Shown here: positions 6,209-23,523 of the stretch, one piece after another
Position numbering within the stretch: position 1 is the first letter of the stretch
Layout: each line of letters opens with the position of its first letter
Notes under the pieces: model-generated
Seen by the model: the letters and a program-made list of their open reading frames with translations, nothing else
Database searches by the model: none
Told to the model about the DNA's origin: nothing
NCBI GenBank assembly: GCA_038224325.1
Contig: JBBRFL010000016.1
Span: forward strand, 3,076-67,075
Length of the DNA: 64,000 nucleotides
From: Thermoanaerobaculia bacterium
GTDB taxonomy: Bacteria; Acidobacteriota; Thermoanaerobaculia; UBA5066; Gp7-AA6
Direction of reading: 5' to 3'
Translations under genes and position numbers: made by a program

Positions 6209-8605
6209 ATGCCTCAGAATCGAGGCGTGCGCAGAGTGCCCCGCATCCTGGCGGTGATCGTCCCGCTCCCCCTCGTCGCCCTCCTCGGCGGAGTCGCGGG
6301 CGGCTTCGCCACCAACTTCGTGCGCGTGCCGCGGGTCTCGCAGCTTGCTACGTACCGGCCGGACATCATCACGGAGATCGTGGCGCGCGACGGGTCGACG
6401 ATCGCGCGGTATGCCATCGAGCGGCGCATCCTGGTGCCCCGCGCCGCGATTCCCTCCGTGTTCCGGAACGCCATCGTCGCCACGGAGGACAAGAATTTCT
6501 TCCAACACGGTGGAGTGGACCTTCCCCGCACGCTTTCGGCGCTCGTCGCCAACGTCCAGCAGGGGGGCTACGCGCAGGGCGGCTCTACGCTGACGCAGCA
6601 GCTCGCGCGGGCGATCTTCCTCTCTCCGAACAAGACCCTGTCGCGCAAGATCAACGAGGCGCTGGTCGCCTTCGAGATCGAGCGACGCTACTCGAAGGAT
6701 CAGATCCTGACGATGTACGCCAACGAGATCTACCTCGGCCACGGTAACTATGGCGTCGAGGCCGCCTGCCGCTACTACTTCGGAAAGAGCGTGAAGGACG
6801 TCTCGCTGGCGGAGGCCGCGCTGCTCGCCGGGATCGTCCAGCGCCCGGAGGACCAGTCGCCGTTTCGCAACCCGCCCCTGGCCCGCGCCCGCCGCGCGAC
6901 CGCCCTGCGCCGGATGCGCTCGGCCGGGTTCATCACGGAACGGGAGCGCGCGGCGGCCGAGGCGGAGCCGTTACCGTCGGCCCCATTCCTCCCCGAATCG
7001 ATCATCGGCCCCTACTTCTGCGAGGAGATCCGCCAGTACCTCGAGAAGAGTTACGGCGAGAAGGACCTCTATCGCCGCGGGCTGCGGGTCGAGTCTACGC
7101 TCGACCCCGAGCTCCAGTCCTGGTCCGAGGAGGCCCTGGGATGGGGACTGCGCCAGATCTCGCGGCGCCACGGATTCCACAAGGTCCGAAATCTCCTTGC
7201 GGAGGGATACCGCTCGCTCGAGACGTACGTGGACCCGACCTGGGAGGGCGCTCGGATCGTGGAGGGCGCGTCCTTCCGAGGCGTGGTTTCCCGCGTAACG
7301 CCGGCCGGGGCCGACGTGCGGATCGGCGGGCAGACTCTCCTCCTTCCGAACGCGACTGCGGCCTGGACGGGCGCCTCCACCGCGGCCAAGATTCTCAAGA
7401 CGGGCGACCTCGTCACGACGACGGTCCAGAAGAGCAAGGACGGAAGCCTCGTCCTCGCGCTCGACCAGGAGCCTCGCGAGCAGGGCGCGGTCCTGATCCT
7501 CGAGAACTCGAGCGGCGCGATTCGCGCGATGGTCGGCGGCTCGGACTGGACGCAGTCCAAGTTCAACCGCGCCACCCAGGCGCTGCGCCAGGCCGGCTCG
7601 GCGTTCAAGCCCTTCGTGTACCTCACCGCGCTCGAGCAGGGCTACACCGCCGCGGACACCGTTTTCGACGGGCCGCTGTCGATCGTCATCGACCCGCGGC
7701 AGCCTCCGTATCGCCCCAGCAACTACGACGGCAAGTTCCACGGGATCGTCACCTTCCGCAAGGCCCTCGAGCACTCCTACAACATCCCGGCCGTCCGCGT
7801 GGCACGCATGGTGGGTCTATCGAACGTCATCCAGACGGCGCATCGCCTCGGAGTCCGGCAGGAGCTCCACGCGTACCCGTCGCTCGCGCTCGGATCCTTC
7901 GAGGTCAGCCTGATCGAGCTGACGTCCGCGTACTCGGTCTTCGCCAACCAGGGCCTCGCCTTCTCCCCGTACCTGGTCGAACGGATCACGGACTCCAACG
8001 GCGACGTCCTTGAGCAGACGCATCCGGACCCGCGCGAGGTGGAGAGCCCGCAGACCTCCTACCAGCTGCTGCAGATTCTCCGCGGAGTCACGCAGCGCGG
8101 AACCGGGGCCTCCGCGGCGCAGCTCAAGCTCAACATCGCGGGGAAGACGGGCACCACCAACGACTTCACCGACGCCTGGTTCGTCGGCATGACCCCGCGC
8201 TACACGCTCGGGGTCTGGGTCGGGAACGACCAGAAGACCCAGACGATCGGCCGCGGCTCGGACGGCGCGCACACGGCCCTGCCGATCTGGATCCGCGTCC
8301 TGCAGAAAATGAAGGAGCACGGCCGGATCGATCCGAAGGAGGACTTCGAGGTTCCCCCGAACATCGTCTTCACGCCGGTCGACTACGAAACGGGGCTCAA
8401 GGCGACCACCGACAGCCCGCTGCCGGTCCTGGAATCCTTCGTCAGCGGCTCGCAGCCGACGGAGGAGTGGAACGTCCGGTCGCAGGAGATCTCGCGGCTC
8501 CCCTGGTCCCTGCAGCAGCCCTTCTACGTTCCCAAGAAGGGCGAATCGGAATCCGAGGTGTGGGAGCCGGAAGTCTCGCCGCCGTCACCCCCGTCGCCGC
8601 GCTGA
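6209..8605 (+). CDS. mrcA: Penicillin-binding protein 1A (bifunctional glycosyltransferase/transpeptidase)
   Basis: GT51 motifs ([57 protein letters not shown]) and transpeptidase motifs ([15 protein letters not shown]). Confidence 0.9.
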
Positions 8606-8615
8606 GGGCGAGGGG

Positions 8616-9074
8616 TCAGGAGGCGGCGGCGCCCAGCGGCTGCACGTCGACGGTCACGGTGGCGACCACGTCCCGGTGGAGGCGCACGTGGACGCTGTGG
8701 GCGCCGAGGCGGCGGATCGGCTCGGTGAGCTCGACGCGGCGTCGATCGACCTCGATGCCCTTGGCGGCGAGCGCGTCGGCGATGTCGGAGGAGGTCACGG
8801 AGCCGTAGAGCTGGCTCTCGTCGCCGGCCTTCTTGGAGACCACGATGGTCAGCCCTTCGACCTTGCGCGCGACGTCCTCGGCCACGGCCTTCTCGTTCAA
8901 CATCTTCTGGTCGTACTTCTTCCGCTCCTCGCCGAGCTTGCGGACGTTGGCGTCCGTCGCCTCGTACGCGACCCCCTGAGGAAAGAGGAAGTTTCGCGCG
9001 TAGCCCGGCTTCACGGTCACGGTGTCGCCGCGGTGCCCGAGGCCCCGGATGTCGTCGGCCAGAATGACTTTCAT
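8616..9074 (-). CDS. rplI: 50S ribosomal protein L9
   Basis: MKVILADDIRGLGHRGDTVTVKPGYARNFLFPQGVA... 152 aa. Its ATG overlaps the stop of the upstream DUF2232 gene (ATGA). Confidence 0.9.
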   Translation of the reverse strand: MKVILADDIRGLGHRGDTVTVKPGYARNFLFPQGVAYEATDANVRKLGEERKKYDQKMLNEKAVAEDVARKVEGLTIVVSKKAGDESQLYGSVTSSDIADALAAKGIEVDRRRVELTEPIRRLGAHSVHVRLHRDVVATVTVDVQPLGAAAS

Positions 9075-10060
9075 GACTTCTCCATTGCTCCCTCGCCCAT
9101 TCGGCGAAAGTCGACGTACCAATCGAAAAGCCCCAGCAGCGCCACCCCCACGTGGATCGGGAAGTAGGACGCCAGGACGTACAGACCCGCCCGCAGCAAG
9201 CGGGCCCGGAACCATCTCCGGAGGAAGTGGCAGATGATAGAGAGGCCCGCCACAAAAAACAAGGCCGAGAGCGGAAAGAGGAGATTCCCGGCCGCCCGGC
9301 GCGCCTCCCCCGGGAGGAGCCCGAATGCCGCGCCGGACGCGACGAAGATGCCCGCCGCGGCCGCGGGAACCCGCAGCCCCTCGAACCGGGCCGCATCCGC
9401 CGTCGGACCAGGGCGCGCGCTGGCGGCTCCGCCGTAGAACGCGATCGCCGCACCGATAACCCAGAAGGCGCCGAAGATTCCCCAGAGATATCGCCGGGTC
9501 AGCTCCCGGGCGTCCGTGAGCAGGGCCCGCACGCGCGCCGCAGTGTCCTTGTCCGCGCCCGACCGGGAGTACGACTCCATCACCGAGGGAGTCATCCGGT
9601 CGAATGCGGTGGCGGCTTCGTCGGAGAGGGATGGGCCCGGGCCCCGCGCGGCCGCTCCGAAGGCGGCGGCGAGGAAGGCGCAGCCGGCGAGACAGATTCC
9701 GAGGTAGCAGCGCGAGGGCTCCGCCCCCGCGCGGAGGAAGCCGACGCTCGCCGTCGGAACGATTGTGACGCCCGCGACCGCGAACGCCATGGCGACCGCC
9801 GAGCCGATTCCGCCCGTCGCCGCCGCGAGCCCGAACACGATGGCCGACGTGATCGCGCAGCCGAGCAGCGCCGTCAGGAACCCTCGCCGGTGCGCGAGGC
9901 GCACGATGGGGACCGCCGCCAGCGGGACCCCGAGGACCCCGAAGAGAGGAACTACGAACACGGCCGCGAAACACGTCGCGGCCAGAAGAGCCGCCATGGG
10001 GATCTCGAAGCGGCTCATCGGCCGCGGCGGGGCCTCCGTCGCGACGTCGGTCGAGATCAT
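9071..10060 (-). CDS. DUF2232 (YybS-like) polytopic membrane protein
   Basis: Multi-TM hydrophobic protein. Its position between rpsR and rplI matches the conserved rpsF-rpsR-DUF2232-rplI arrangement. Confidence 0.5.
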   Translation of the reverse strand: MISTDVATEAPPRPMSRFEIPMAALLAATCFAAVFVVPLFGVLGVPLAAVPIVRLAHRRGFLTALLGCAITSAIVFGLAAATGGIGSAVAMAFAVAGVTIVPTASVGFLRAGAEPSRCYLGICLAGCAFLAAAFGAAARGPGPSLSDEAATAFDRMTPSVMESYSRSGADKDTAARVRALLTDARELTRRYLWGIFGAFWVIGAAIAFYGGAASARPGPTADAARFEGLRVPAAAAGIFVASGAAFGLLPGEARRAAGNLLFPLSALFFVAGLSIICHFLRRWFRARLLRAGLYVLASYFPIHVGVALLGLFDWYVDFRRMGEGAMEKS

Positions 10061-10078
10061 GCGCCCGAGCGGGTGCGC

Positions 10079-10378
10079 CTAGTCCGTCGCGTACGGCAGG
10101 AGCGCGATCGAGCGAGCCCGCTTGATCGCCGTCTGCAGCTTGCGTTGGTGGAGGGCGCACGTTCCGGAGATCCGCCGCGGAAGGATCTTGCCGCGCTCGG
10201 GAATGAATCCCTGCAGCATCTTCACGTCCTTCCAGTCGATGTGCTCGATCTTCTCCGCGCAGAACTTGCAGACCTTGCGGCGGCGGACGAAGAATTTCTT
10301 CCGAGGACCGCCCTTCCCGTCCTTGCTCGCCGCGGCGCCGCGCGCGCCGGTGCGTCCCGATCCGCCTCCCATCCTCAT
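10079..10378 (-). CDS. rpsR: 30S ribosomal protein S18
   Basis: [15 protein letters not shown] and [31 protein letters not shown] overlap with rpsF. Confidence 0.9.
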
Positions 10379-10797
10379 GGCTCGGAGCTCCTTTCCGTCG
10401 CGGCTGCGGGAGCCGGCGCGGACGCCTCGGCGGGCTGGGCCGGCGGACGCGGCGGTCGGCGAACCGCCTTGATCTTCAGGCGCTCGGCCATCTTCGCGGC
10501 CCGCTTGAGCTCTTCATCCACGCGCACCGCGAGGTGCCGGAGCACCTGGTCGGAGAGCCCCATGCGCCGCTCGGCCTCGGCCACCGCGGCCGGTGGCGCC
10601 TCGACCTGCCAGTACACGTAGTGGGCTTCGCGTTTGCGCAGGATCGGGAAGGCGAGTCGCCGCTTGCCCCACGGCTCTTCCTTGACGACGTTCGCGCCGC
10701 CGTCCACCAGGATCTTCTTGTATTCGCCCGCGACCTTCGCGGCGTCTTCGTCGCTCAGGTCCGGAGTGACCAGAACGACGATGTCGTACAGCCTCAT
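10375..10797 (-). CDS. rpsF: 30S ribosomal protein S6
   Basis: [30 protein letters not shown]...; GGAGGA Shine-Dalgarno 6 nt upstream. Start trimmed to ATG at 10795-10797. Confidence 0.88.
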
Positions 10798-10816
10798 GAT
10801 GTCCTCCTCATGGATA

Positions 10817-11416
10817 TCAATCCGGATCGAGGCGGTCCGGAGAGGAAGGTTGAACATTCGCACGCCGCATCGCGGCGTCGATTCCGTGCGTCAGCCAGAG
10901 CCGGAGCGCCTCGACGGCGCGCCCCACGCTCTCTTCGAATGTCTCTCGCTCGGCCTTCGCGAAGGGCTCGAGGACGTAGTCCGCGAGGTCCCGCTCGCGC
11001 GAGTACCGCTCGCCGCGGATTCCCACCCTCAGGCGTGGAAAGTCCGTGGTAGCGAGATGGCCCGTCACCGATCGGAGGCCCTTCTGGCCTCCCGCAGATC
11101 CCCGCGCGCGCAGCCGAAGGATGCCGAGCGGGAGATCGATGTCGTCCACGACGACACAGAGCCCCGATGGTTCGACGCCATGTTTCTGGCAAAGAGCCCG
11201 AACCGCCTCACCCGAGGCGTTCATGAAAGTCTGCGGAAGAGCCAGGAGCACCGGGGTCTCTCCCACCCTTCCCCGACCGACTCGCGAGGAGCACTCGCGC
11301 GACCGGATCCGGATTCCCTCCTCGGCCGCCAGCGCCTCGACGATGCGGAACCCGGCGTTGTGACGGGTGCCGTCGTACTCGCCCCCCGGATTCCCGAGGC
11401 CGACGATGGCGTGCAG
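10817..11416 (-). CDS. pth: Peptidyl-tRNA hydrolase. There is no canonical start codon; CTG or ATC are candidates.
   Basis: My own translation of the frame upstream of the track ORF gives [36 protein letters not shown]...[17 protein letters not shown], the conserved Pth N-terminus with the catalytic His. The frame is open from the rplY TAG (11420-11422) with no ATG, GTG or TTG before GTG at 11266. The 5' coordinate is therefore provisional. Confidence 0.75.
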   Translation of the reverse strand: [199 protein letters not shown]

Positions 11417-11419
11417 AGG

Positions 11420-12127
11420 CTACTTCTCCTTTTCCTTCTCCTTCTTGCCGTCCTTGCCCTCTTCCGCGGCCTCGTCCTCGGATACCGCCTTGCCCTTCTT
11501 CAGCACCTCGGGCTCGGCCGTCTCGGCGGCGCCCTCGACCGCCTCGACGACGGGCTCCTCCTCGCGCGTCGGATGCGCGACGTGGAGGACCACCTTCTCG
11601 GGATTGTCGACGATGCGCACGCCCTCCATCGCGGGAAGCTCGGCGATGCGGATCGCATCCCCGATCGACAGCTCCGTCACGTCCACGGCGATGTGCGCCG
11701 GGATGTCCGCGGGAAGGCACTCGATCTCGATCTCGCGGGTGACGACGTCCAGGATCCCCCCGTCGGTCTTCACGCCCTTCGCGATCCCGACGACCTCGAC
11801 GGGCACACGGACCGTTACCCTGACGTCCATCAGGACGCGCACGAAGTCGATGTGGAGCGGCTTGCGGGAGACGGGGTCGCGCTGGAGCTCGCGGATCATC
11901 GCGTGACGGCTCTGGTCCGAGCCAGCCAGCTTGAGCAGGAAGATGGCGTTCTCGCCCGCGCCCTCGCGAAAAAGATCGGCGAGCGCCTTGCGGTCGAGCG
12001 AGATCGGGACGTTGGGCTTGCCGGCCCCGTAGACGACGGCCGGGATCCGTCCGCCCGCGCGGCTTCGCCGAGCCTCGTTCTTCCCGATCGTCGAGCGCTT
12101 CTCGACGGACAACTCGATGGTCTTCAT
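11420..12127 (-). CDS. rplY: 50S ribosomal protein L25/general stress protein Ctc
   Basis: MKTIELSVEKRSTIGKNEARRSRAGGRIPAVVYG... with a C-terminal K/E-rich tail. Confidence 0.85.
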   Translation of the reverse strand: MKTIELSVEKRSTIGKNEARRSRAGGRIPAVVYGAGKPNVPISLDRKALADLFREGAGENAIFLLKLAGSDQSRHAMIRELQRDPVSRKPLHIDFVRVLMDVRVTVRVPVEVVGIAKGVKTDGGILDVVTREIEIECLPADIPAHIAVDVTELSIGDAIRIAELPAMEGVRIVDNPEKVVLHVAHPTREEEPVVEAVEGAAETAEPEVLKKGKAVSEDEAAEEGKDGKKEKEKEK

Positions 12128-12166
12128 GGCCTTCCCCGCGCGGGGTTCCGCGCAAAGAGGCGGATT

Positions 12167-13126
12167 CTACACAAAAAGCGAGGAAACGGAAGCCCCATCG
12201 TGGATCCGCTGGATCGCCTCGCCCAGCAGAGCCGCCACGGAGAGGGCCCGGATCCGGGCGCAGCGGGCCATCGCGGCCTCCACGGGAATCGTGTTGGTGA
12301 CGAGCAGCCGCTCGAGCTTCGAGCCCTCGATGCGGTCCAGGGCGGGTCCTGAGAAGACGCCGTGCACGGCGGCCGCGAAGGTGCGCCGCGCCCCCTGCCC
12401 CCGCAGGGCCTCCTCGGCCTGGGTCAGGGTGCCGGCCGTGTCGATCATGTCGTCCAGAATCAGGGCGTCCTTCCCCTCGACCTCGCCGACGACGTTCAAG
12501 ATCTCGGTCTCGTTCTTCCCCGTGCGCCGCTTGTCGATGACCGCCAGCGAGGCGTCGAGGCGTTTGGCGATCGCCCGCGCGCGCGTCAACCCGCCCACGT
12601 CGGGCGAGACGATGACGAGGTCGTCGAGGTTGAGCTTCCGGATCGCGTCGAGGAGCACCGGGGCCGCGAACAGGTGATCGACCGGGATGTTGAAGAACCC
12701 CTGGATCTGGGCCGCGTGGAGATCCATCGTCAGGATCCGATCCGCGCCGGAGGCCGTCAGCAGGTCCGCCATGAGCTTGGCCGCGATCGGCACGCGGGGC
12801 TTGTCCTTCTTGTCCTGTCTCGCGTAGCCGAAGTACGGGAGGACAGCGGTGATCCGGGACGCCGACGACCGACGGAACGCGTCGAGCAGGATGAGCAACT
12901 CCATGACGTGGTCGTTGACGGGAGAGCACGTGGGCTGGACGACGAAGACGTCGGCGCCACGCACGTTCTCGTCGATCTGGCAGTAGTCCTCGCCGTCGGA
13001 GAAGTTGTAAAGGGTCAGCGCGCCGAGTGAGATGCCCAGATACGCGCAGATCTCCTGCGCGAGCGCCGGGTGCGCGCGGCCCGAGAAGATCTTGAGGTCA
13101 CCGTAGTTGAACGCGTGGCTCGTCAA
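12167..13126 (-). CDS. prs: Ribose-phosphate pyrophosphokinase (PRPP synthetase)
   Basis: DLHAAQIQGFF, VVSPDVGG and LILDDMIDTAGT motifs. Confidence 0.92.
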   Translation of the reverse strand: MTSHAFNYGDLKIFSGRAHPALAQEICAYLGISLGALTLYNFSDGEDYCQIDENVRGADVFVVQPTCSPVNDHVMELLILLDAFRRSSASRITAVLPYFGYARQDKKDKPRVPIAAKLMADLLTASGADRILTMDLHAAQIQGFFNIPVDHLFAAPVLLDAIRKLNLDDLVIVSPDVGGLTRARAIAKRLDASLAVIDKRRTGKNETEILNVVGEVEGKDALILDDMIDTAGTLTQAEEALRGQGARRTFAAAVHGVFSGPALDRIEGSKLERLLVTNTIPVEAAMARCARIRALSVAALLGEAIQRIHDGASVSSLFV

Positions 13127-13254
13127 GCGATCCGGATTCTAACCGCGAATCGGGGGCCCGAGGAGGCGGACGAAGAAATGGCTCAGAGGGAGGCGAGGCA
13201 GCCCTTCTCCCTCGCCACCGTCGGTCTCAGCGGGCGGGCTGCAGTCCCGACAAC

Positions 13255-13553
13255 ATGGTGACGAATCCAAACGGCGCCCTGCCCGTGATCACCCAGATCC
13301 AGGTTAACCCGACGCATTCCGCCAGCGTGCTGATCATCGCAGGGATGAACTTCGAGCAGACGGCGACGTTCGATCTTCGGCAGGGCGGCGCGGCGAAGGC
13401 TGCTGACGCAGAGGATCCTGGCGACCGGCACGCCTGCGACCGGGATTCAGTTCGAAGCGACGATCCCGGTGGGCACCGCCCCCGGGAGCGCCACGACGAA
13501 CGCGGGTACGGGCTGCGGGCGGGTCCTCGTCAAAGTGTTCTAGGGGCCCGACG
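13255..13553 (+). pseudogene. Possible frameshifted IPT/TIG (Ig-like) domain gene remnant next to the tRNA-Gln 3' end
   Basis: Frame 1 reads MVTNPNGALPVITQIQVNPTHSASVLIIAGMNFEQTATFDLRQGG. A +1 frame continues LLTQRILATGTPATGIQFEATIPVGTAPGSATTNAGTGCGRVLVKVF to a stop. Together they resemble the TIG consensus P.I..I.P..G...GGT.V.I.G.NF...V.FG.... Confidence 0.2.
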
Positions 13554-13575
13554 GGTGCGCCGCCGCACGGTTGGC

Positions 13576-13648
13576 TGGGGCGCTAGGACTCGAACCTAGA
13601 AATGCCGGCTCCAAAGGCCGGTGCCTTACCAATTTGGCGACGCCCCAA
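13576..13648 (-). tRNA. tRNA-Gln (anticodon UUG)
   Basis: The reverse complement folds as a cloverleaf: acceptor UGGGGCG/CGCCCCA, anticodon stem CCGGC/GCCGG with loop CUUUGGA, T-arm GGTTCGAGTCC. Near-identical to E. coli tRNA-Gln. CCA is not encoded. Confidence 0.85.
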
Positions 13649-21407: not shown

Positions 21408-21854
21408 TCAGCGCGCCGGTAGCTCCAGGAGAAACGTCGCGGGCCCCTCGTTGACGAGGGAGACATCCATCGTTGTTCCGAAGACGCCCGTTTCGACGCG
21501 TGCGCCGAGGCCTCGGAGCGCGGTGACGAAGCCGTCGTAGAGGGGCCGAGCCTCTTCGCCCGGCAGCGCGCGATCGAATCCCGGCCGGCGGCCGCGGGAC
21601 AGGTCCGCGGCCAGCGTGAACTGGGAGACCGCCAGGACCGCGCCGTCGACATCCGCGAGCGAGAGATTCATCTTGCCGGCCGCGTCCTCGAAAATCCGCA
21701 TTCCCGCGACCTTGCGCGCGGCTTCCTGCGCCGCGGGAAGCGCGTCGCCCCTCTCGGCTCCGAAGAACACGAGCAGGCCGCGGCCGACCGCCCCGACGAT
21801 CTCCCCCGCCACGCGCACCTCCGCGCTCCGGACCCGCTGGACGACGAGCCTCAC
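21408..21854 (-). CDS. dtd: D-aminoacyl-tRNA deacylase
   Basis: (M)RLVVQRVRSAEVRVAGEIVGAVGRGLLVFFGAE...SQFTLAAD...NEGPATF. GTG start overlaps the murJ stop (GTGA). Confidence 0.85.
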   Translation of the reverse strand: MRLVVQRVRSAEVRVAGEIVGAVGRGLLVFFGAERGDALPAAQEAARKVAGMRIFEDAAGKMNLSLADVDGAVLAVSQFTLAADLSRGRRPGFDRALPGEEARPLYDGFVTALRGLGARVETGVFGTTMDVSLVNEGPATFLLELPAR

Positions 21855-23428
21855 GCGCGGCGCCTCCGGGCGATGCGGCGCAGCTCGGCGGGCTCCGGCG
21901 CCCCGAGGAGGTGGGCGGCCACTCCGTAGAACGCCGCCGCGGCTCCGATCATCACCGCCAGGATGCCGGCGCCTCGCCAGCCCGCGATGTCTCCGGGGGG
22001 AACGAGCCGGAACGCGCCCGCCAGGAGCAGGCCCATCGCCGCTGAGGCGGCTCCGATCCGAATCAGCGACGCCGCCACGGCCCTGCCGCGCATGGGCCCG
22101 TGCCGCCGCCGGAACGCGGCGAGGAGGATCGCCACGTCGACGGCGGCCGCGGCGGAGGCGGCGAGGCCTATACCCGGAAGGCCCAGCGAGGGCGTCAGGA
22201 TCCCGCAGAGCAGGAGAAAGACGGCCGCGTCGGCCAGGGCGGCGAGGACCGGAAGCGTGGTGCTCTGGAGCGCGTAGAACGCCGGCACGAGGACGCGGAC
22301 ACCCGCGAAGAAGAACAGACCGACCGCCAGCGCCGCCAGCGCCCCGGCCGTCGCCGCGGTGTCGGACTCGCCGAACCGTCCGCCCTGGAAGAGGACGCGC
22401 ACGATGGGTACCTGGAGGACCACGAGCCCGACGCTCGCGGGGACCGTGACGAACGCGATCAGCCGCAGCGCGAACGCCAGGTTGTCCTTGAAGGGCTCGC
22501 GATCCGCGGCGAGGGCCTGCCGCGACAGCAGCGGCAGGATCGCCGTCGCGACCGAGACCGCGAAGCCGCCGAGCACGAGCTCCTTCAGTCGGTTCGCGTA
22601 GTAGAGGTGGGACACGCTCGCATTCCCGAGGCCCGCGGCGAACCGCGTCGAGACCACGGTGTTGACGGTGTTGATCCCGTAGGCGAAGAGCCTCGGAGCC
22701 ATCAGCAGCAGCACGGAGCGGACGGCGGGGTCTCCCCAGCCGAGGGCGGGCCGGCCGACGGCGCGCAGCCGCCGCAGCTGCGGCACCTGGATCGCGATTT
22801 GGAGGATCCCGCCCGCGAGGACCCCTCCCGCCAGCCCGTACGTGGGCTCCGCCAGGCGGGGCGACACGAAGAGGGCCGCGAAGATCAGGGCTACGTTCAG
22901 GAAGATCGGCGCCGCGGCCGAGATCGCGAACCGGTGATGGGCGTTCAGGATTGCCTGGCACAGCGCGGAGAGAGACACGAGGAGGATGTACGGAAAGATC
23001 CACCGGTTCAGAAGGACCGTCAGCTCGAACTTCCCCGGCGTCTGATGGAACTGCCCCGCGAGGAGCCCCACGAGCCACGGCGAGAGGAGGATCCCGAGGA
23101 CGGTGATGCCGGTCAGCAGCAGCGCGAAGGTCCCCGCGACCCGGGCGAGAAAGGCCCTCGCCTCCTCCTCGGTGCGCCCGGCGGACACCGAGGCGTAAAC
23201 CGGGATGACCGCGGAGGACATGGCCCCTTCTCCAATGATCTCTCGCAGCATGTTGGGGATGCGAAACGCCACGAAGAAGGCGTCGGTGCGCATCCCCGCG
23301 CCGAGGGTGGACGCGATGACCTTGTCCCGTACGTAGCCCGTGACCCGGGACAGGAGAGTCAGAGGGGTGATCGTCGAGGCGGATCGGACCAGTCGCCCGC
23401 GGGCCTCGTCGATCTCTTGCTGGGACAT
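21851..23428 (-). CDS. murJ: Lipid II flippase MurJ (MviN)
   Basis: 525 aa polytopic protein. N-terminus TLLSRVTGYVRDKVIASTLGAGMRTDAFFVAFRIPNMLR is typical of MurJ. Confidence 0.88.
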   Translation of the reverse strand: MSQQEIDEARGRLVRSASTITPLTLLSRVTGYVRDKVIASTLGAGMRTDAFFVAFRIPNMLREIIGEGAMSSAVIPVYASVSAGRTEEEARAFLARVAGTFALLLTGITVLGILLSPWLVGLLAGQFHQTPGKFELTVLLNRWIFPYILLVSLSALCQAILNAHHRFAISAAAPIFLNVALIFAALFVSPRLAEPTYGLAGGVLAGGILQIAIQVPQLRRLRAVGRPALGWGDPAVRSVLLLMAPRLFAYGINTVNTVVSTRFAAGLGNASVSHLYYANRLKELVLGGFAVSVATAILPLLSRQALAADREPFKDNLAFALRLIAFVTVPASVGLVVLQVPIVRVLFQGGRFGESDTAATAGALAALAVGLFFFAGVRVLVPAFYALQSTTLPVLAALADAAVFLLLCGILTPSLGLPGIGLAASAAAAVDVAILLAAFRRRHGPMRGRAVAASLIRIGAASAAMGLLLAGAFRLVPPGDIAGWRGAGILAVMIGAAAAFYGVAAHLLGAPEPAELRRIARRRRA

Positions 23429-23523
23429 TTCGGTAGGCCGATTCTAGCCGGTGCGGCGCCGGGACATCATCTGTCCGGCCGAAAGTGGAATATCGTGTCA
23501 GCACCTGAAAGGAGGGCGAACAC

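What the first reader, a model, noticed from the sequence alone, without database searches (positions are those of the whole stretch)
10817..11422. pth lacks any canonical start codon; the frame opens directly at the rplY stop with CTG as the nearest candidate
The conserved Pth N-terminus, including IVGLGNPG and the catalytic His in TRHNAGF, is encoded in frame immediately after the rplY TAG. The reading is TAG CCT CTG CAC GCC ATC GTC GGC. There is no ATG, GTG or TTG anywhere between that stop and codon 50 or so of Pth. Translation must therefore start at CTG (3 nt after the stop) or ATC, or by termination-reinitiation, or the assembly has an error. An essential gene with a non-canonical initiation is unusual.
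Basis: seen in the sequence. Interest (0 to 1): 0.5.

Follow-up and report, generated by a model that had tools for sequence, protein, structure and literature searches.

The report
Conserved CTG start codon of pth
The essential enzyme peptidyl-tRNA hydrolase in this soil Acidobacteriota lineage has no ATG, GTG or TTG start and almost certainly begins at a rare CTG codon three bases after the stop of the ribosomal protein L25 gene; the arrangement is conserved in over a hundred relatives, and common gene finders mis-call it.

Summary
On the minus strand, rplY ends with TAG (11420-11422). The pth frame opens right after it: CCT CTG CAC GCC ATC GTC GGC. The first in-frame ATG/GTG/TTG is a GTG at codon 52 (11264-11266), past the catalytic His.

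It is not an assembly error. 15 related species genomes and about 100 distinct metagenome contigs carry the same AAGGAGAAG-TAR-NNN-CTG junction.
- The stop alternates between TAG and TAA.
- The spacer triplet is hypervariable.
- CTG never varies, although other conserved Leu codons in the gene do.

CTG sits where orthologues have ATG, GTG or TTG, and 9 nt downstream of a perfect AAGGAG Shine-Dalgarno inside the rplY tail.

In a Gemmatimonadota-like clade, the homologous codon is CTG, GTG or ATG. It is unconserved only when a GTG start lies one codon upstream.

Best explanation: fMet initiation at CTG (11414-11416), probably coupled to rplY termination. This would give a low Pth yield from a highly expressed ribosomal-protein operon.

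Conserved bacterial CTG starts are already known, for example rpsL in Deinococcus-Thermus. NCBI already annotates CTG starts for some of these pth genes. I therefore rate this a new member of a known kind, of moderate interest.

The parts
11420..12127 (-). rplY/ctc (ribosomal protein bL25, long Ctc form, 235 aa) with a K/E-rich tail ...KKEKEKEK. The stop TAG is at 11420-11422.
   Evidence: ORF listed. Pfam Ribosomal_L25p + Ribosomal_TL5_C and TIGR00731 hits.
11426..11431 (-). Shine-Dalgarno-like AAGGAG inside the last codons of rplY, 9 nt upstream of CTG. The stretch AAG GAG AAG is invariant at nucleotide level in relatives.
   Evidence: Sequence. Codons -5 to -3 are invariant in 17 genome loci. 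The upstream 21-mers in metagenome hits are all purine-rich ...AAGGAGAAG (the scan pattern itself required GGAGAAG). The region is predicted unpaired.
11417..11419 (-). Spacer triplet CCT between the rplY stop and CTG. I read it as untranslated.
   Evidence: It is hypervariable in relatives, with no amino-acid conservation: CCT, TCC, CTT, CGC, GGC, AGC, TCT, CCC, AAC, TTT, CTC, GAC, CGA.
11414..11416 (-). CTG, the proposed initiation codon of pth (decoded as fMet).
   Evidence: Found in 16/16 genome loci. Found in 111/113 metagenome hits with a 9-nt gap when the codon was left as NNN in the pattern; the other 2 have GTG. Found in 113/115 loci with at least 60% Pth identity. It sits at the modal -5 position of canonical starts in orthologues. 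With CTG as Met1, the protein aligns to residue 1-4 of solved Pth chains.
10817..11416 (-). pth (peptidyl-tRNA hydrolase, Pth1 family), 199 aa if started at CTG. The stop TGA is at 10817-10819.
   Evidence: PF01195 at 1.4e-59 and TIGR00447 at 7.9e-51. PDB Pth hits down to 1e-36. Codons 2-51 show low amino-acid entropy but high third-position entropy across 109 relatives.
11405..11407 (-). ATC (Ile4), the rival near-cognate start. NCBI chose it in one relative.
   Evidence: in L083 the gene start is the ATC. It is 18 nt from AAGGAG. It is part of the conserved beta-1 sequence I-V-G-L-G, so its conservation is explained by the protein.
11360..11362 (-). CAC codon of the catalytic His (T-R-H-N motif), codon 19 from CTG. 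It lies upstream of the first canonical start.
   Evidence: The codon is invariant in relatives (codon index 18).
11264..11266 (-). First in-frame canonical start (GTG, codon 52 after the stop). Starting here would give a 149-aa product without GLGNPG and the catalytic His.
   Evidence: ORF 10817..11266.
10803..10848 (-). Conserved RNA structure spanning the pth 3' end and the rpsF ribosome-binding site. The outer stem CUUCCUC/GAGGAGG would sequester the rpsF SD. The inner hairpin covaries. The 3' bulge UUGAYAUCCAY carries an invariant CC. It fits the published S6:S18 rpsF leader motif. This is adjacent context, not part of the start-codon feature.
   Evidence: 92% of cells paired, and 0/500 shuffles reach the observed covariation score. 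Motif description in PMC3895269.
10378..10797 (-). rpsF (S6). Its ATG is at 10795-10797, 19 nt after the pth stop, and rpsR and rplI follow. This shows that pth is embedded among ribosomal-protein genes.
   Evidence: No promoter-like or minus-strand terminator-like site in 8500-13600.

Best explanation
pth is a real, intact, full-length gene whose translation starts at the near-cognate codon CTG (11414-11416, minus strand), read by initiator fMet-tRNA. The codon lies 3 nt after the rplY stop and 9 nt after a perfect AAGGAG Shine-Dalgarno encoded by the K/E tail of L25.

Because stop and start are only 3 nt apart, ribosomes that have just finished rplY are the likely main source of initiating ribosomes (translational coupling or reinitiation). 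De novo SD-directed 30S binding is also possible.

In E. coli, CUG initiates at roughly 0.1-3% of the AUG rate. The arrangement would therefore act as a built-in step-down: a small amount of Pth made from an operon (prs-rplY-pth-rpsF-rpsR-rplI) whose neighbours are needed at ribosomal abundance.

Shown: the gene is intact and under protein-level selection from CTG onward; there is no canonical start; and CTG, the SD and the short spacing are conserved at nucleotide level across a deep clade.

Inferred: CTG is the codon actually used; translation is coupled to rplY; and the purpose is low expression.
For: 1. There is no ATG/GTG/TTG between the TAG and codon 52, while the Pth domain, including GLGNPG and TRHN, starts at codon 4-5.

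2. 15 species-level genomes of Acidobacteriota/Thermoanaerobaculia (Pth identity 66-86%) all have AAGGAGAAG | TAG or TAA | variable triplet | CTG.

3. I scanned metagenomes with the start codon left as NNN and got 119 hits, 101 distinct. Of the 113 with the 9-nt gap, 111 have CTG and 2 have GTG. Four more have CTG after a 2-nt spacer, out of frame with the stop.

4. In the per-codon analysis, the spacer codon shows 4 triplets coding 4 amino acids among 17 genomes. CTG is invariant. The codons after it vary synonymously: CGC/CGT/CGG and GCC/GCG/GCA.

5. Among 45 conserved 4- or 6-fold degenerate codons in 109 distinct CDS, CTG is the only one with no synonymous variant (these CDS were extracted by matching CTG, so the unbiased figures are those of point 3). 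The GLG Leu codon, for comparison, is CTC 96 / CTG 13. Leu codon usage in the window is CTG 40% and CTC 51%.

6. The most common canonical start position in 55 distant orthologues is 5 codons before GLGNPG, which is exactly where CTG lies. Aminicenantes have TAA-GTG or TAG-CGC-TTG at the same junction.

7. The Gemmatimonadota-like clade provides natural controls. The homologous codon is CTG in L037, L047, L051, L060 and L080; GTG in L093 and L110; ATG in L208. It is GAG, GCG or GTT only where a GTG start lies one codon upstream, in L205-L207.

8. With CTG as residue 1, the protein aligns from residue 1-4 of solved Pth structures.

9. NCBI annotation of two relatives starts pth at this CTG.

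10. The SD region is predicted unpaired.

11. Published precedents and rates: a CTG start of rpsL, supported by mass spectrometry and conserved in Deinococcus-Thermus (PMC2830850); CUG at 0.1-3% of AUG in E. coli (10.1101/063800); and +3-nt stop/start pairs galT-galK and rplK-rplA that are translationally coupled (PMC12548453).
Against: - There is no experimental N-terminus or ribosome-profiling evidence for any member of this clade.
- ATC or ATT, three codons downstream, is also conserved and is also a near-cognate codon. NCBI picked it in one relative.
- The 9-nt SD spacing is at the long end of the usual range.
- The sequences are phylogenetically related, so the invariance of CTG cannot be turned into a formal probability.
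- Coupling to rplY, co-transcription and the low-expression rationale are inferred only.
- The CUG efficiency values come from E. coli, not from this lineage.
Confidence: 0.8

Rival explanations
1. Translation starts at ATC (Ile4, 11405-11407), giving [8 protein letters not shown]..., and CTG is only a conserved untranslated or Leu codon.
For: ATC or ATT is conserved in all relatives. AUC and AUU are near-cognate starts of similar strength to CUG in E. coli. NCBI annotated the ATC as the start in one relative (L083). An ATC start for dnaA is documented in Deinococcus.
Against: - The conservation of ATC is explained by the protein: Ile is part of the family-wide I-V-G-L-G strand.
- ATC is 18 nt from AAGGAG, with no purine-rich stretch closer.
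- The two codons between CTG and ATC vary synonymously, as translated codons do: CGC/CGT/CGG and GCC/GCG/GCA.
- This reading does not explain why CTG never becomes CTC. Nor does it explain why CTG is exchanged for GTG or ATG, or released from constraint, only when another start lies upstream.
- Canonical starts of orthologues sit at the CTG position, not the ATC position.
Confidence: 0.08
2. Pth is made only by ribosomes that terminate on rplY and restart without dissociating (obligate termination-reinitiation). The codon matters little, and the SD merely tethers the post-termination ribosome.
For: The stop-to-CTG distance is always very short: 3 nt in the window clade, and 2, 3 or 4 nt in two other lineages. 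Other lineages behind rplY appear to lack canonical starts too: L150 with ACG overlapping TAA and L116 with ATC. +3-nt gene pairs are known to be coupled.
Against: The strict invariance of CTG, and its replacement only by GTG or ATG, shows that codon identity is under selection, so this is a mode of delivery to CTG rather than an alternative to it. Whether pth translation depends on rplY translation cannot be tested in silico. A strong SD would also support independent initiation.
Confidence: 0.3
3. Pth is produced as an L25-Pth fusion by readthrough of the in-frame TAG.
For: The stop is in frame with pth in the window and in all 16 genome loci and 113 metagenome hits of the clade. The base after the stop is usually C.
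Against: - The stop is TAA in about 40% of relatives.
- The codon after the stop shows no amino-acid conservation.
- Related CTG lineages have 2- or 4-nt spacers that put the stop out of frame.
- There is no stimulatory structure: folding z-score -0.6, with no covarying helix at the junction.
- No suppressor tRNA is present in the window, and TAG ends other genes here.
Confidence: 0.02
4. The feature is an artefact or a decayed gene: either a sequencing or assembly error removed a normal start, or pth is a pseudogene or truncated protein starting at GTG codon 52.
For: Most database gene calls for relatives are N-terminally truncated (174-175 aa, or starting at V/M-GLGNPG).
Against: The same junction occurs in more than 100 independent assemblies from different projects. 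Codons 2-51 are under clear protein-level purifying selection and contain the GLGNPG Asn and the catalytic His. The truncated calls simply reflect gene finders limited to ATG/GTG/TTG.
Confidence: 0.01

Closest known systems
CTG initiation codon of rpsL (ribosomal protein S12) conserved across Deinococcus-Thermus, and ATC for dnaA (Baudet et al. 2010, PMC2830850)
   Same: An essential translation-related gene in a high-GC lineage lacks a canonical start. A near-cognate CTG is conserved at nucleotide level across the whole clade, and standard annotation mis-places the start.
   Different: That case has mass-spectrometric support; this one has only comparative evidence. The gene (pth) and the phyla (Acidobacteriota/Thermoanaerobaculia, Gemmatimonadota-like and a third lineage) differ. 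Here CTG is locked 2-4 nt behind the stop of a ribosomal-protein gene, with the SD inside that gene's tail.
infC (IF3) AUU/AUA start codon and IF3 autoregulation
   Same: A conserved weak, near-cognate start on a translation-factor gene. IF3 is the factor that discriminates against such codons, so expression can respond to IF3 activity.
   Different: No evidence here for a feedback loop, and Pth is not an initiation factor. An IF3-sensitive link is speculation.
Translationally coupled gene pairs with +3-nt stop/start spacing (galT-galK, rplK-rplA; review PMC12548453)
   Same: The stop of the upstream gene is 3 nt before the start of the downstream gene, the SD lies inside the upstream ORF, and the setting is a ribosomal-protein operon.
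   Different: Those pairs use canonical starts and typically aim at similar outputs. Here the downstream start is a near-cognate codon that should cut output by one to three orders of magnitude.
NCBI (PGAP) annotation of pth in related MAGs
   Same: GCA_049273755.1 and GCA_035262565.1 carry pth CDSs of 199-200 aa that begin at exactly this CTG.
   Different: The annotation is inconsistent: ATC was chosen in GCA_039931865.1. It is a pipeline decision, not a study. I found no paper describing it.

Membership tests
Pth1 bacterial peptidyl-tRNA hydrolase (PF01195 / TIGR00447) | Full-length match to the family profiles above the curated cut-offs | tested here: met
   PF01195 scores 201.5 bits (cut-off 27) over profile positions 2-183 of 183. 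TIGR00447 scores 172.3 bits (cut-off 100) over 2-172 of 172.
Pth1 bacterial peptidyl-tRNA hydrolase (PF01195 / TIGR00447) | Conserved active-site motifs: GLGNPG (Asn), T-R-H-N (catalytic His), and the acidic D-D-x-D-L-P segment | tested here: met
   All three are present in the translation. The GLGNPG Asn and the T-R-H-N His are invariant in 17 relatives. The translation aligns to solved Pth and CRS2 chains.
Bacterial gene with a conserved near-cognate (CTG) initiation codon | No in-frame ATG/GTG/TTG between the upstream stop and the start of the conserved domain | tested here: met
   The same holds in 20 of 75 scorable genome loci: 15 in this clade and 5 Gemmatimonadota.
Bacterial gene with a conserved near-cognate (CTG) initiation codon | The candidate codon occupies the position of canonical starts in orthologues and is exchanged only with start codons | tested here: met
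   CTG is at the modal -5 position. GTG replaces it in L093 and L110, ATG in L208 and TTG in L034. It is unconstrained when a GTG lies upstream.
Bacterial gene with a conserved near-cognate (CTG) initiation codon | Nucleotide-level invariance of the codon, in contrast with synonymous variation at comparable codons | tested here: met
   The unbiased count comes from the pattern scan with NNN at the start codon.
Bacterial gene with a conserved near-cognate (CTG) initiation codon | Shine-Dalgarno at functional spacing | tested here: met
   AAGGAG lies 9 nt upstream and is invariant. In Gemmatimonadota, AAGG(A/G) lies 6-8 nt upstream.
Bacterial gene with a conserved near-cognate (CTG) initiation codon | Protein N-terminus (fMet/Met) mapped to that codon | not testable with these tools
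   This needs N-terminal proteomics or initiation-site ribosome profiling.
Translational coupling by termination-reinitiation | Very short or overlapping stop-start distance, conserved in relatives | tested here: met
   +3 nt in the window clade, and +2, +3 or +4 nt in other CTG lineages.
Translational coupling by termination-reinitiation | Both genes on one transcript | tested here: inconclusive
   No promoter-like site and no minus-strand terminator-like site in 8500-13600. The gene order prs-rplY-pth is conserved across phyla. There are no transcript data.
Translational coupling by termination-reinitiation | Downstream translation depends on upstream translation | not testable with these tools
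   This requires reporter genetics.
Programmed stop-codon readthrough | Leaky stop context or stimulatory structure, and coding-type conservation immediately after the stop | tested here: not met
   TAA and TAG alternate. The spacer codon is not conserved. No structure is found. The stop is out of frame in related CTG lineages.
S6:S18-binding rpsF leader RNA (Fu et al. 2014), noticed in passing | H1 stem sequestering the rpsF SD, a variable paired H2, and a 3' bulge with a conserved CC | tested here: met
   Architecture seen. H2 covariation: 5 of its 8 pairs have compensatory changes, and 0/500 shuffles reach the observed score. Motif description. H1 is nearly invariant and so is untestable by covariation. 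There is no Rfam hit. Protein binding is not testable.

The most novel reading that the evidence does not exclude
Pth synthesis may be hard-wired to ribosomal-protein synthesis. Under this reading, pth is translated essentially only by ribosomes that have just terminated on rplY and restart on a near-cognate codon, so each cell makes a fixed small fraction of Pth per L25. This solution would have evolved repeatedly behind rplY in at least three deep lineages: CTG in Thermoanaerobaculia-like Acidobacteriota, in Gemmatimonadota-like bacteria, and in a third soil lineage, with possible ACG or ATC variants elsewhere. IF3 polices near-cognate starts, so the ratio could also respond to IF3 activity or translational stress.
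Probability: 0.25. Interest if true: 0.6.

Novelty: new member of a known kind. Interest (0 to 1): 0.4.

Why it matters
1. Annotation. Of the 120 closest database proteins, only 6 include the full N-terminus. 89 lack the GLGNPG motif at the N-terminus, and most of those seen also lack the catalytic His. 25 start at or next to GLGNPG. An essential enzyme is therefore systematically mis-called in at least two soil phyla, because common gene finders allow only ATG, GTG and TTG. NCBI's own calls are inconsistent between CTG and ATC.

2. Biology. This adds a deep, clade-wide and apparently recurrent example of a near-cognate start on an essential translation-quality-control gene. It is placed 2-4 nt behind a ribosomal-protein stop codon. 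That makes it a clean natural system for testing how coupling and weak start codons set expression ratios inside operons.

3. It is not a new mechanism. Conserved bacterial CTG starts and +3-nt coupling are both documented.

Tried and rejected
- Assembly error or pseudogene: rejected by more than 100 independent assemblies and by the protein-level selection pattern.
- Readthrough fusion: rejected. The evidence is listed under the readthrough rival and the readthrough membership test.
- A known RNA element at the junction: Rfam, at both gathering and E-value thresholds, found only two tRNAs and noise.
- Genome-wide relaxed start-codon use: ten other window genes with long open stretches before their first canonical start all have Pfam domains beginning after a canonical start. 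The feature is specific to pth.
- The idea that the weak start exists to keep ribosomes off the rpsF leader embedded in the pth 3' end. This may contribute here, but it is not general. Gemmatimonadota-like CTG lineages have no rpsF after pth (an H+-PPase gene follows in relatives L205-L207), and a third CTG lineage has a gap of about 100 nt before rpsF.
- Exact look-up of the window's Pth, tried as the CTG-, ATC- and GTG-start versions: none is in the protein collection.
- Literature searches for a described pth CTG start found nothing. One hit on reinitiation at non-canonical codons turned out to be eukaryotic and irrelevant.
- Cultured isolates: a second protein search seeded with a Gemmatimonadota Pth returned only MAG and metagenome proteins. 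No finished isolate genome was examined.
- L150 (ACG overlapping TAA) and L116 (ATC) are single contigs and remain unresolved.
Full report
**What is there.** The feature lies on the minus strand. rplY (bL25/Ctc: Pfam Ribosomal_L25p + TL5_C, TIGR00731) occupies 11420-12127 and ends ...AAG GAG AAG TAG, with the TAG at 11420-11422. The same frame continues CCT CTG CAC GCC ATC GTC GGC CTC GGG AAT CCG GGG, encoding [12 protein letters not shown], then ...T-R-H-N-A-G-F, and runs to a TGA at 10817-10819.

The 200 codons after the TAG match Pfam PF01195 over residues 5-188 (201.5 bits) and TIGR00447 over residues 4-175. The first in-frame ATG/GTG/TTG is a GTG at 11264-11266, codon 52. That is downstream of the GLGNPG Asn and of the catalytic His codon at 11360-11362.

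A 51-codon stretch without a canonical start codon is not unusual in this 70% GC window (P about 0.13 from the window's own codon usage). What is unusual is that the conserved N-terminus has nothing canonical in front of it.

**Not an artefact.**
- A scan of one genome per species found 15 close relatives: Acidobacteriota/Thermoanaerobaculia MAGs from several projects, with Pth identity of 66-86%. All 15 have the same junction, AAGGAGAAG | TAG or TAA | one variable triplet | CTG.
- A metagenome scan used a pattern that fixed only the rplY tail and the downstream G-L-G-N-P codons, leaving the start region as N. It gave 119 hits, 101 of them distinct.
- Of the 113 hits with the 9-nt gap, 111 read NNN-CTG-NNN and 2 read CCG-GTG-CGG.
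- Across all loci with at least 60% Pth identity to the window, 113 of 115 have CTG at this position.
- The two exceptions are informative. L084 is a short contig in which pth no longer follows rplY; it has acquired ATG-GCC-ATC in place of the TAA-CCC-CTG of its closest relative (P0002 in L082). L085 keeps TAA-GGA-CTG-CGC-GCC behind rplY but carries a 36-nt insertion that contains a GTG.

**Which codon starts the protein.** Five lines of evidence point to CTG.

1. Pattern of variation in 17 genome loci:
   - Codons -5 to -3 (AAG GAG AAG) are invariant.
   - The stop alternates between TAG (10) and TAA (7).
   - The next triplet has four forms coding four different amino acids. In the metagenome set it has more than thirteen forms.
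   - CTG is invariant.
   - From the following codon onward, variation is of the synonymous, coding type: CGC/CGT/CGG and CAC, then GCC/GCG/GCA.
   - So translation-type constraint begins at CTG and not before it.

2. Comparison with other codons. Among 45 conserved four- or six-fold degenerate codons in 109 distinct CDS, CTG is the only one without a single synonymous variant. The Leu of G-L-G, for comparison, is CTC 96 / CTG 13. These CDS were selected by a regular expression containing CTG, so the unbiased figures are those. In this window, CTG is only 40% of Leu codons.

3. Homology of position. In 55 more distant orthologues with canonical starts, the commonest start position is 5 codons before GLGNPG ([11 protein letters not shown]). 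That is exactly where CTG sits. Aminicenantes have TAA-GTG or TAG-CGC-TTG at the same rplY-pth junction. With CTG as Met1, the protein aligns from residues 1-4 of solved Pth chains (4yly 1:1, 8iu6 2:2, 2pth 3:4).

4. Natural controls. Gemmatimonadota loci also lack any canonical start and have CTG 2, 3 or 4 nt after the rplY stop, with the stop out of frame in two of them. Within that clade (65-72% mutual identity), the homologous codon is one of the following:
   - CTG;
   - GTG (L093, L110);
   - ATG (L208);
   - a non-conserved GAG, GCG or GTT, and only where a GTG start lies one codon upstream (L205-L207).

   This is the behaviour of a start codon, not of a conserved leucine. A third lineage (L130, L140, L146, L172), about 45% identical to both of the others, has TAG-nT-CTG-AAG-GCC-ATC.

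5. Ribosome-binding site. AAGGAG (11426-11431) lies 9 nt upstream of CTG, in a purine-rich stretch predicted to be unpaired. The rival ATC is 18 nt away, with no nearer purine run.

**Rivals.**
- ATC (11405-11407) is conserved, but it belongs to the family-wide I-V-G-L-G strand. NCBI chose it in one relative and chose CTG in two others.
- Readthrough to an L25-Pth fusion is contradicted on several counts. TAA and TAG alternate. The post-stop codon is unconserved. Sister CTG lineages have out-of-frame stops. No structure is present (z = -0.6; no covarying helix). No suppressor tRNA is found.
- A truncated protein starting at GTG-52 would lack the active-site His and Asn, yet codons 2-51 show low amino-acid entropy with high third-position entropy across 109 relatives.
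- Ten other genes in the window with long open stretches before their first canonical start all have domains starting after a canonical start. This is therefore not a genome-wide relaxation of start-codon choice.

**How it most likely works.** Initiator fMet-tRNA reads CTG with a first-position mismatch. In E. coli, CUG supports about 0.1-3% of AUG-level initiation (10.1101/063800), and discrimination against it depends on how the ribosome inspects the initiator tRNA anticodon stem (PMC11497404) and on IF3 (my own knowledge).

The stop-start spacing of +3 nt is the spacing of the classic coupled pairs galT-galK and rplK-rplA (PMC12548453). Across three lineages the spacing stays at 2-4 nt. I therefore infer that ribosomes terminating on the highly translated rplY, held by the AAGGAG in the L25 tail, provide most initiations.

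The gene order prs-rplY-pth is conserved across phyla. In this clade, rpsF, rpsR and rplI follow immediately. No promoter-like site, and no terminator-like site on the coding (minus) strand, was found. A weak start is a simple way to make a low-abundance enzyme from a ribosomal-protein transcript.

Coupling, co-transcription and the expression rationale are inferences. The identity of the start codon rests on comparative evidence only.

**Side finding.** The last 12 codons of pth ([11 protein letters not shown]-stop) lie beyond the Pfam domain end. They encode the 5' half of a conserved RNA structure that ends at the rpsF Shine-Dalgarno:

ACCUUCCUCUCC-[hairpin]-GGAUUGAYAUCCAYGAGGAGGA-N5-AUG (10803-10848).

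- The inner hairpin covaries extensively. 5 of its 8 pairs have compensatory changes, 92% of cells are paired, 0/500 shuffles reach the observed score, and the slid controls score far lower.
- The outer stem CUUCCUC/GAGGAGG is nearly invariant.
- The architecture is an SD-sequestering H1, a variable H2 and a 3' bulge with an invariant CC. It fits the published S6:S18 autoregulatory rpsF leader (PMC3895269), although Rfam reports nothing.

Ribosomes finishing pth must melt this structure, so low traffic through pth may help the leader to function here. The CTG lineages in Gemmatimonadota do not have rpsF after pth, so this cannot be the general reason for the weak start.

**Comparison and novelty.** The closest precedent is the CTG start of rpsL, supported by mass spectrometry and conserved across Deinococcus-Thermus, together with the ATC start of dnaA (PMC2830850). 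infC AUU is the classic regulated near-cognate start. NCBI's pipeline already calls CTG for some of these pth genes. I found no paper describing a pth CTG start.

This is a new member of a known kind. Its main practical consequence is annotation. Of the 120 nearest database proteins, only 6 carry the full N-terminus (4 start at the CTG, 2 at other upstream starts); 89 lack the GLGNPG motif and 25 begin at or next to it. Interest is moderate (0.4). The recurrence of near-cognate starts directly behind rplY in several deep lineages is the most interesting aspect and deserves a tree-wide survey.

Noticed in passing
window 10803-10848 (minus strand), spanning the pth stop (10817-10819) and the rpsF SD (10803-10809): A conserved RNA structure. 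The outer stem CUUCCUC/GAGGAGG would sequester the rpsF Shine-Dalgarno. The inner hairpin covaries strongly among about 50 diverse relatives. The 3' bulge UUGAYAUCCAY has an invariant CC. It fits the published S6:S18 autoregulatory rpsF leader motif, but Rfam does not detect it. Its 5' half lies inside the pth coding sequence.
   Followed up: partly
window 10820-10855 (minus strand), last ~12 codons of pth: The Pth C-terminal tail (V)[11 protein letters not shown] lies beyond the Pfam domain end (aa 188). Its conservation, with low third-position entropy at P-S-S-P, seems to be dictated by the overlapping rpsF leader RNA rather than by the protein. In L012 and L013 the pth frame runs on into the rpsF ATGA.
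   Followed up: partly
window 11192-11197 (minus strand), pth codons 74-75 (GCT CTT, Ala-Leu): Two T-ending codons, rare in a 70% GC genome, are almost invariant across 108-109 relatives (CTT in 107 of 108). This suggests a nucleotide-level constraint inside pth of unknown nature.
   Followed up: no
related loci L150 (1132-1172) and L116 (2863-2917): Two other soil lineages with pth directly behind rplY also lack any in-frame canonical start. L150 has ACG overlapping the TAA stop at the position where its 74%-identical relatives have CTG. L116 has only an ATC four codons before Ile. These are single contigs, so error is not excluded.
   Followed up: partly
related loci L084 (1-140) and L085 (150-330): L084: pth no longer follows rplY, and it has ATG-GCC-ATC in place of the TAA-CCC-CTG of its closest relative (P0002, L082), preceded by a terminator-like GCCGGCGGGTTTTTTT. 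L085: a 36-nt insertion after CTG-CGC-GCC introduces a GTG and duplicates the L-R-A codons.
   Followed up: partly
protein database hits P0001-P0240: Gene callers handle this gene inconsistently. Most JGI, ENA and Logan entries are N-terminally truncated. NCBI entries start at CTG in some MAGs and at ATC in others. A few entries are stored with a literal N-terminal Leu.
   Followed up: yes
window 12138-12153 (minus strand), prs-rplY intergenic region: A GC-rich hairpin GCGCGG-AACC-CCGCGC lies just upstream of the rplY ribosome-binding site, with the ATG at 12125-12127. It could be a regulatory element for L25 synthesis.
   Followed up: no
window 22094-22193 (minus strand): ARAGORN calls a 100-nt tRNA-Arg(CCG), but Rfam's tRNA model does not report it at gathering score. 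It is probably a false positive or an unusual, interrupted tRNA. It lies inside a coding-like ORF (21851-23443).
   Followed up: no
window 13572-13647 (minus strand): tRNA-Gln(UUG) lies directly upstream of prs, heading the prs-rplY-pth-rpsF-rpsR-rplI gene string.
   Followed up: no
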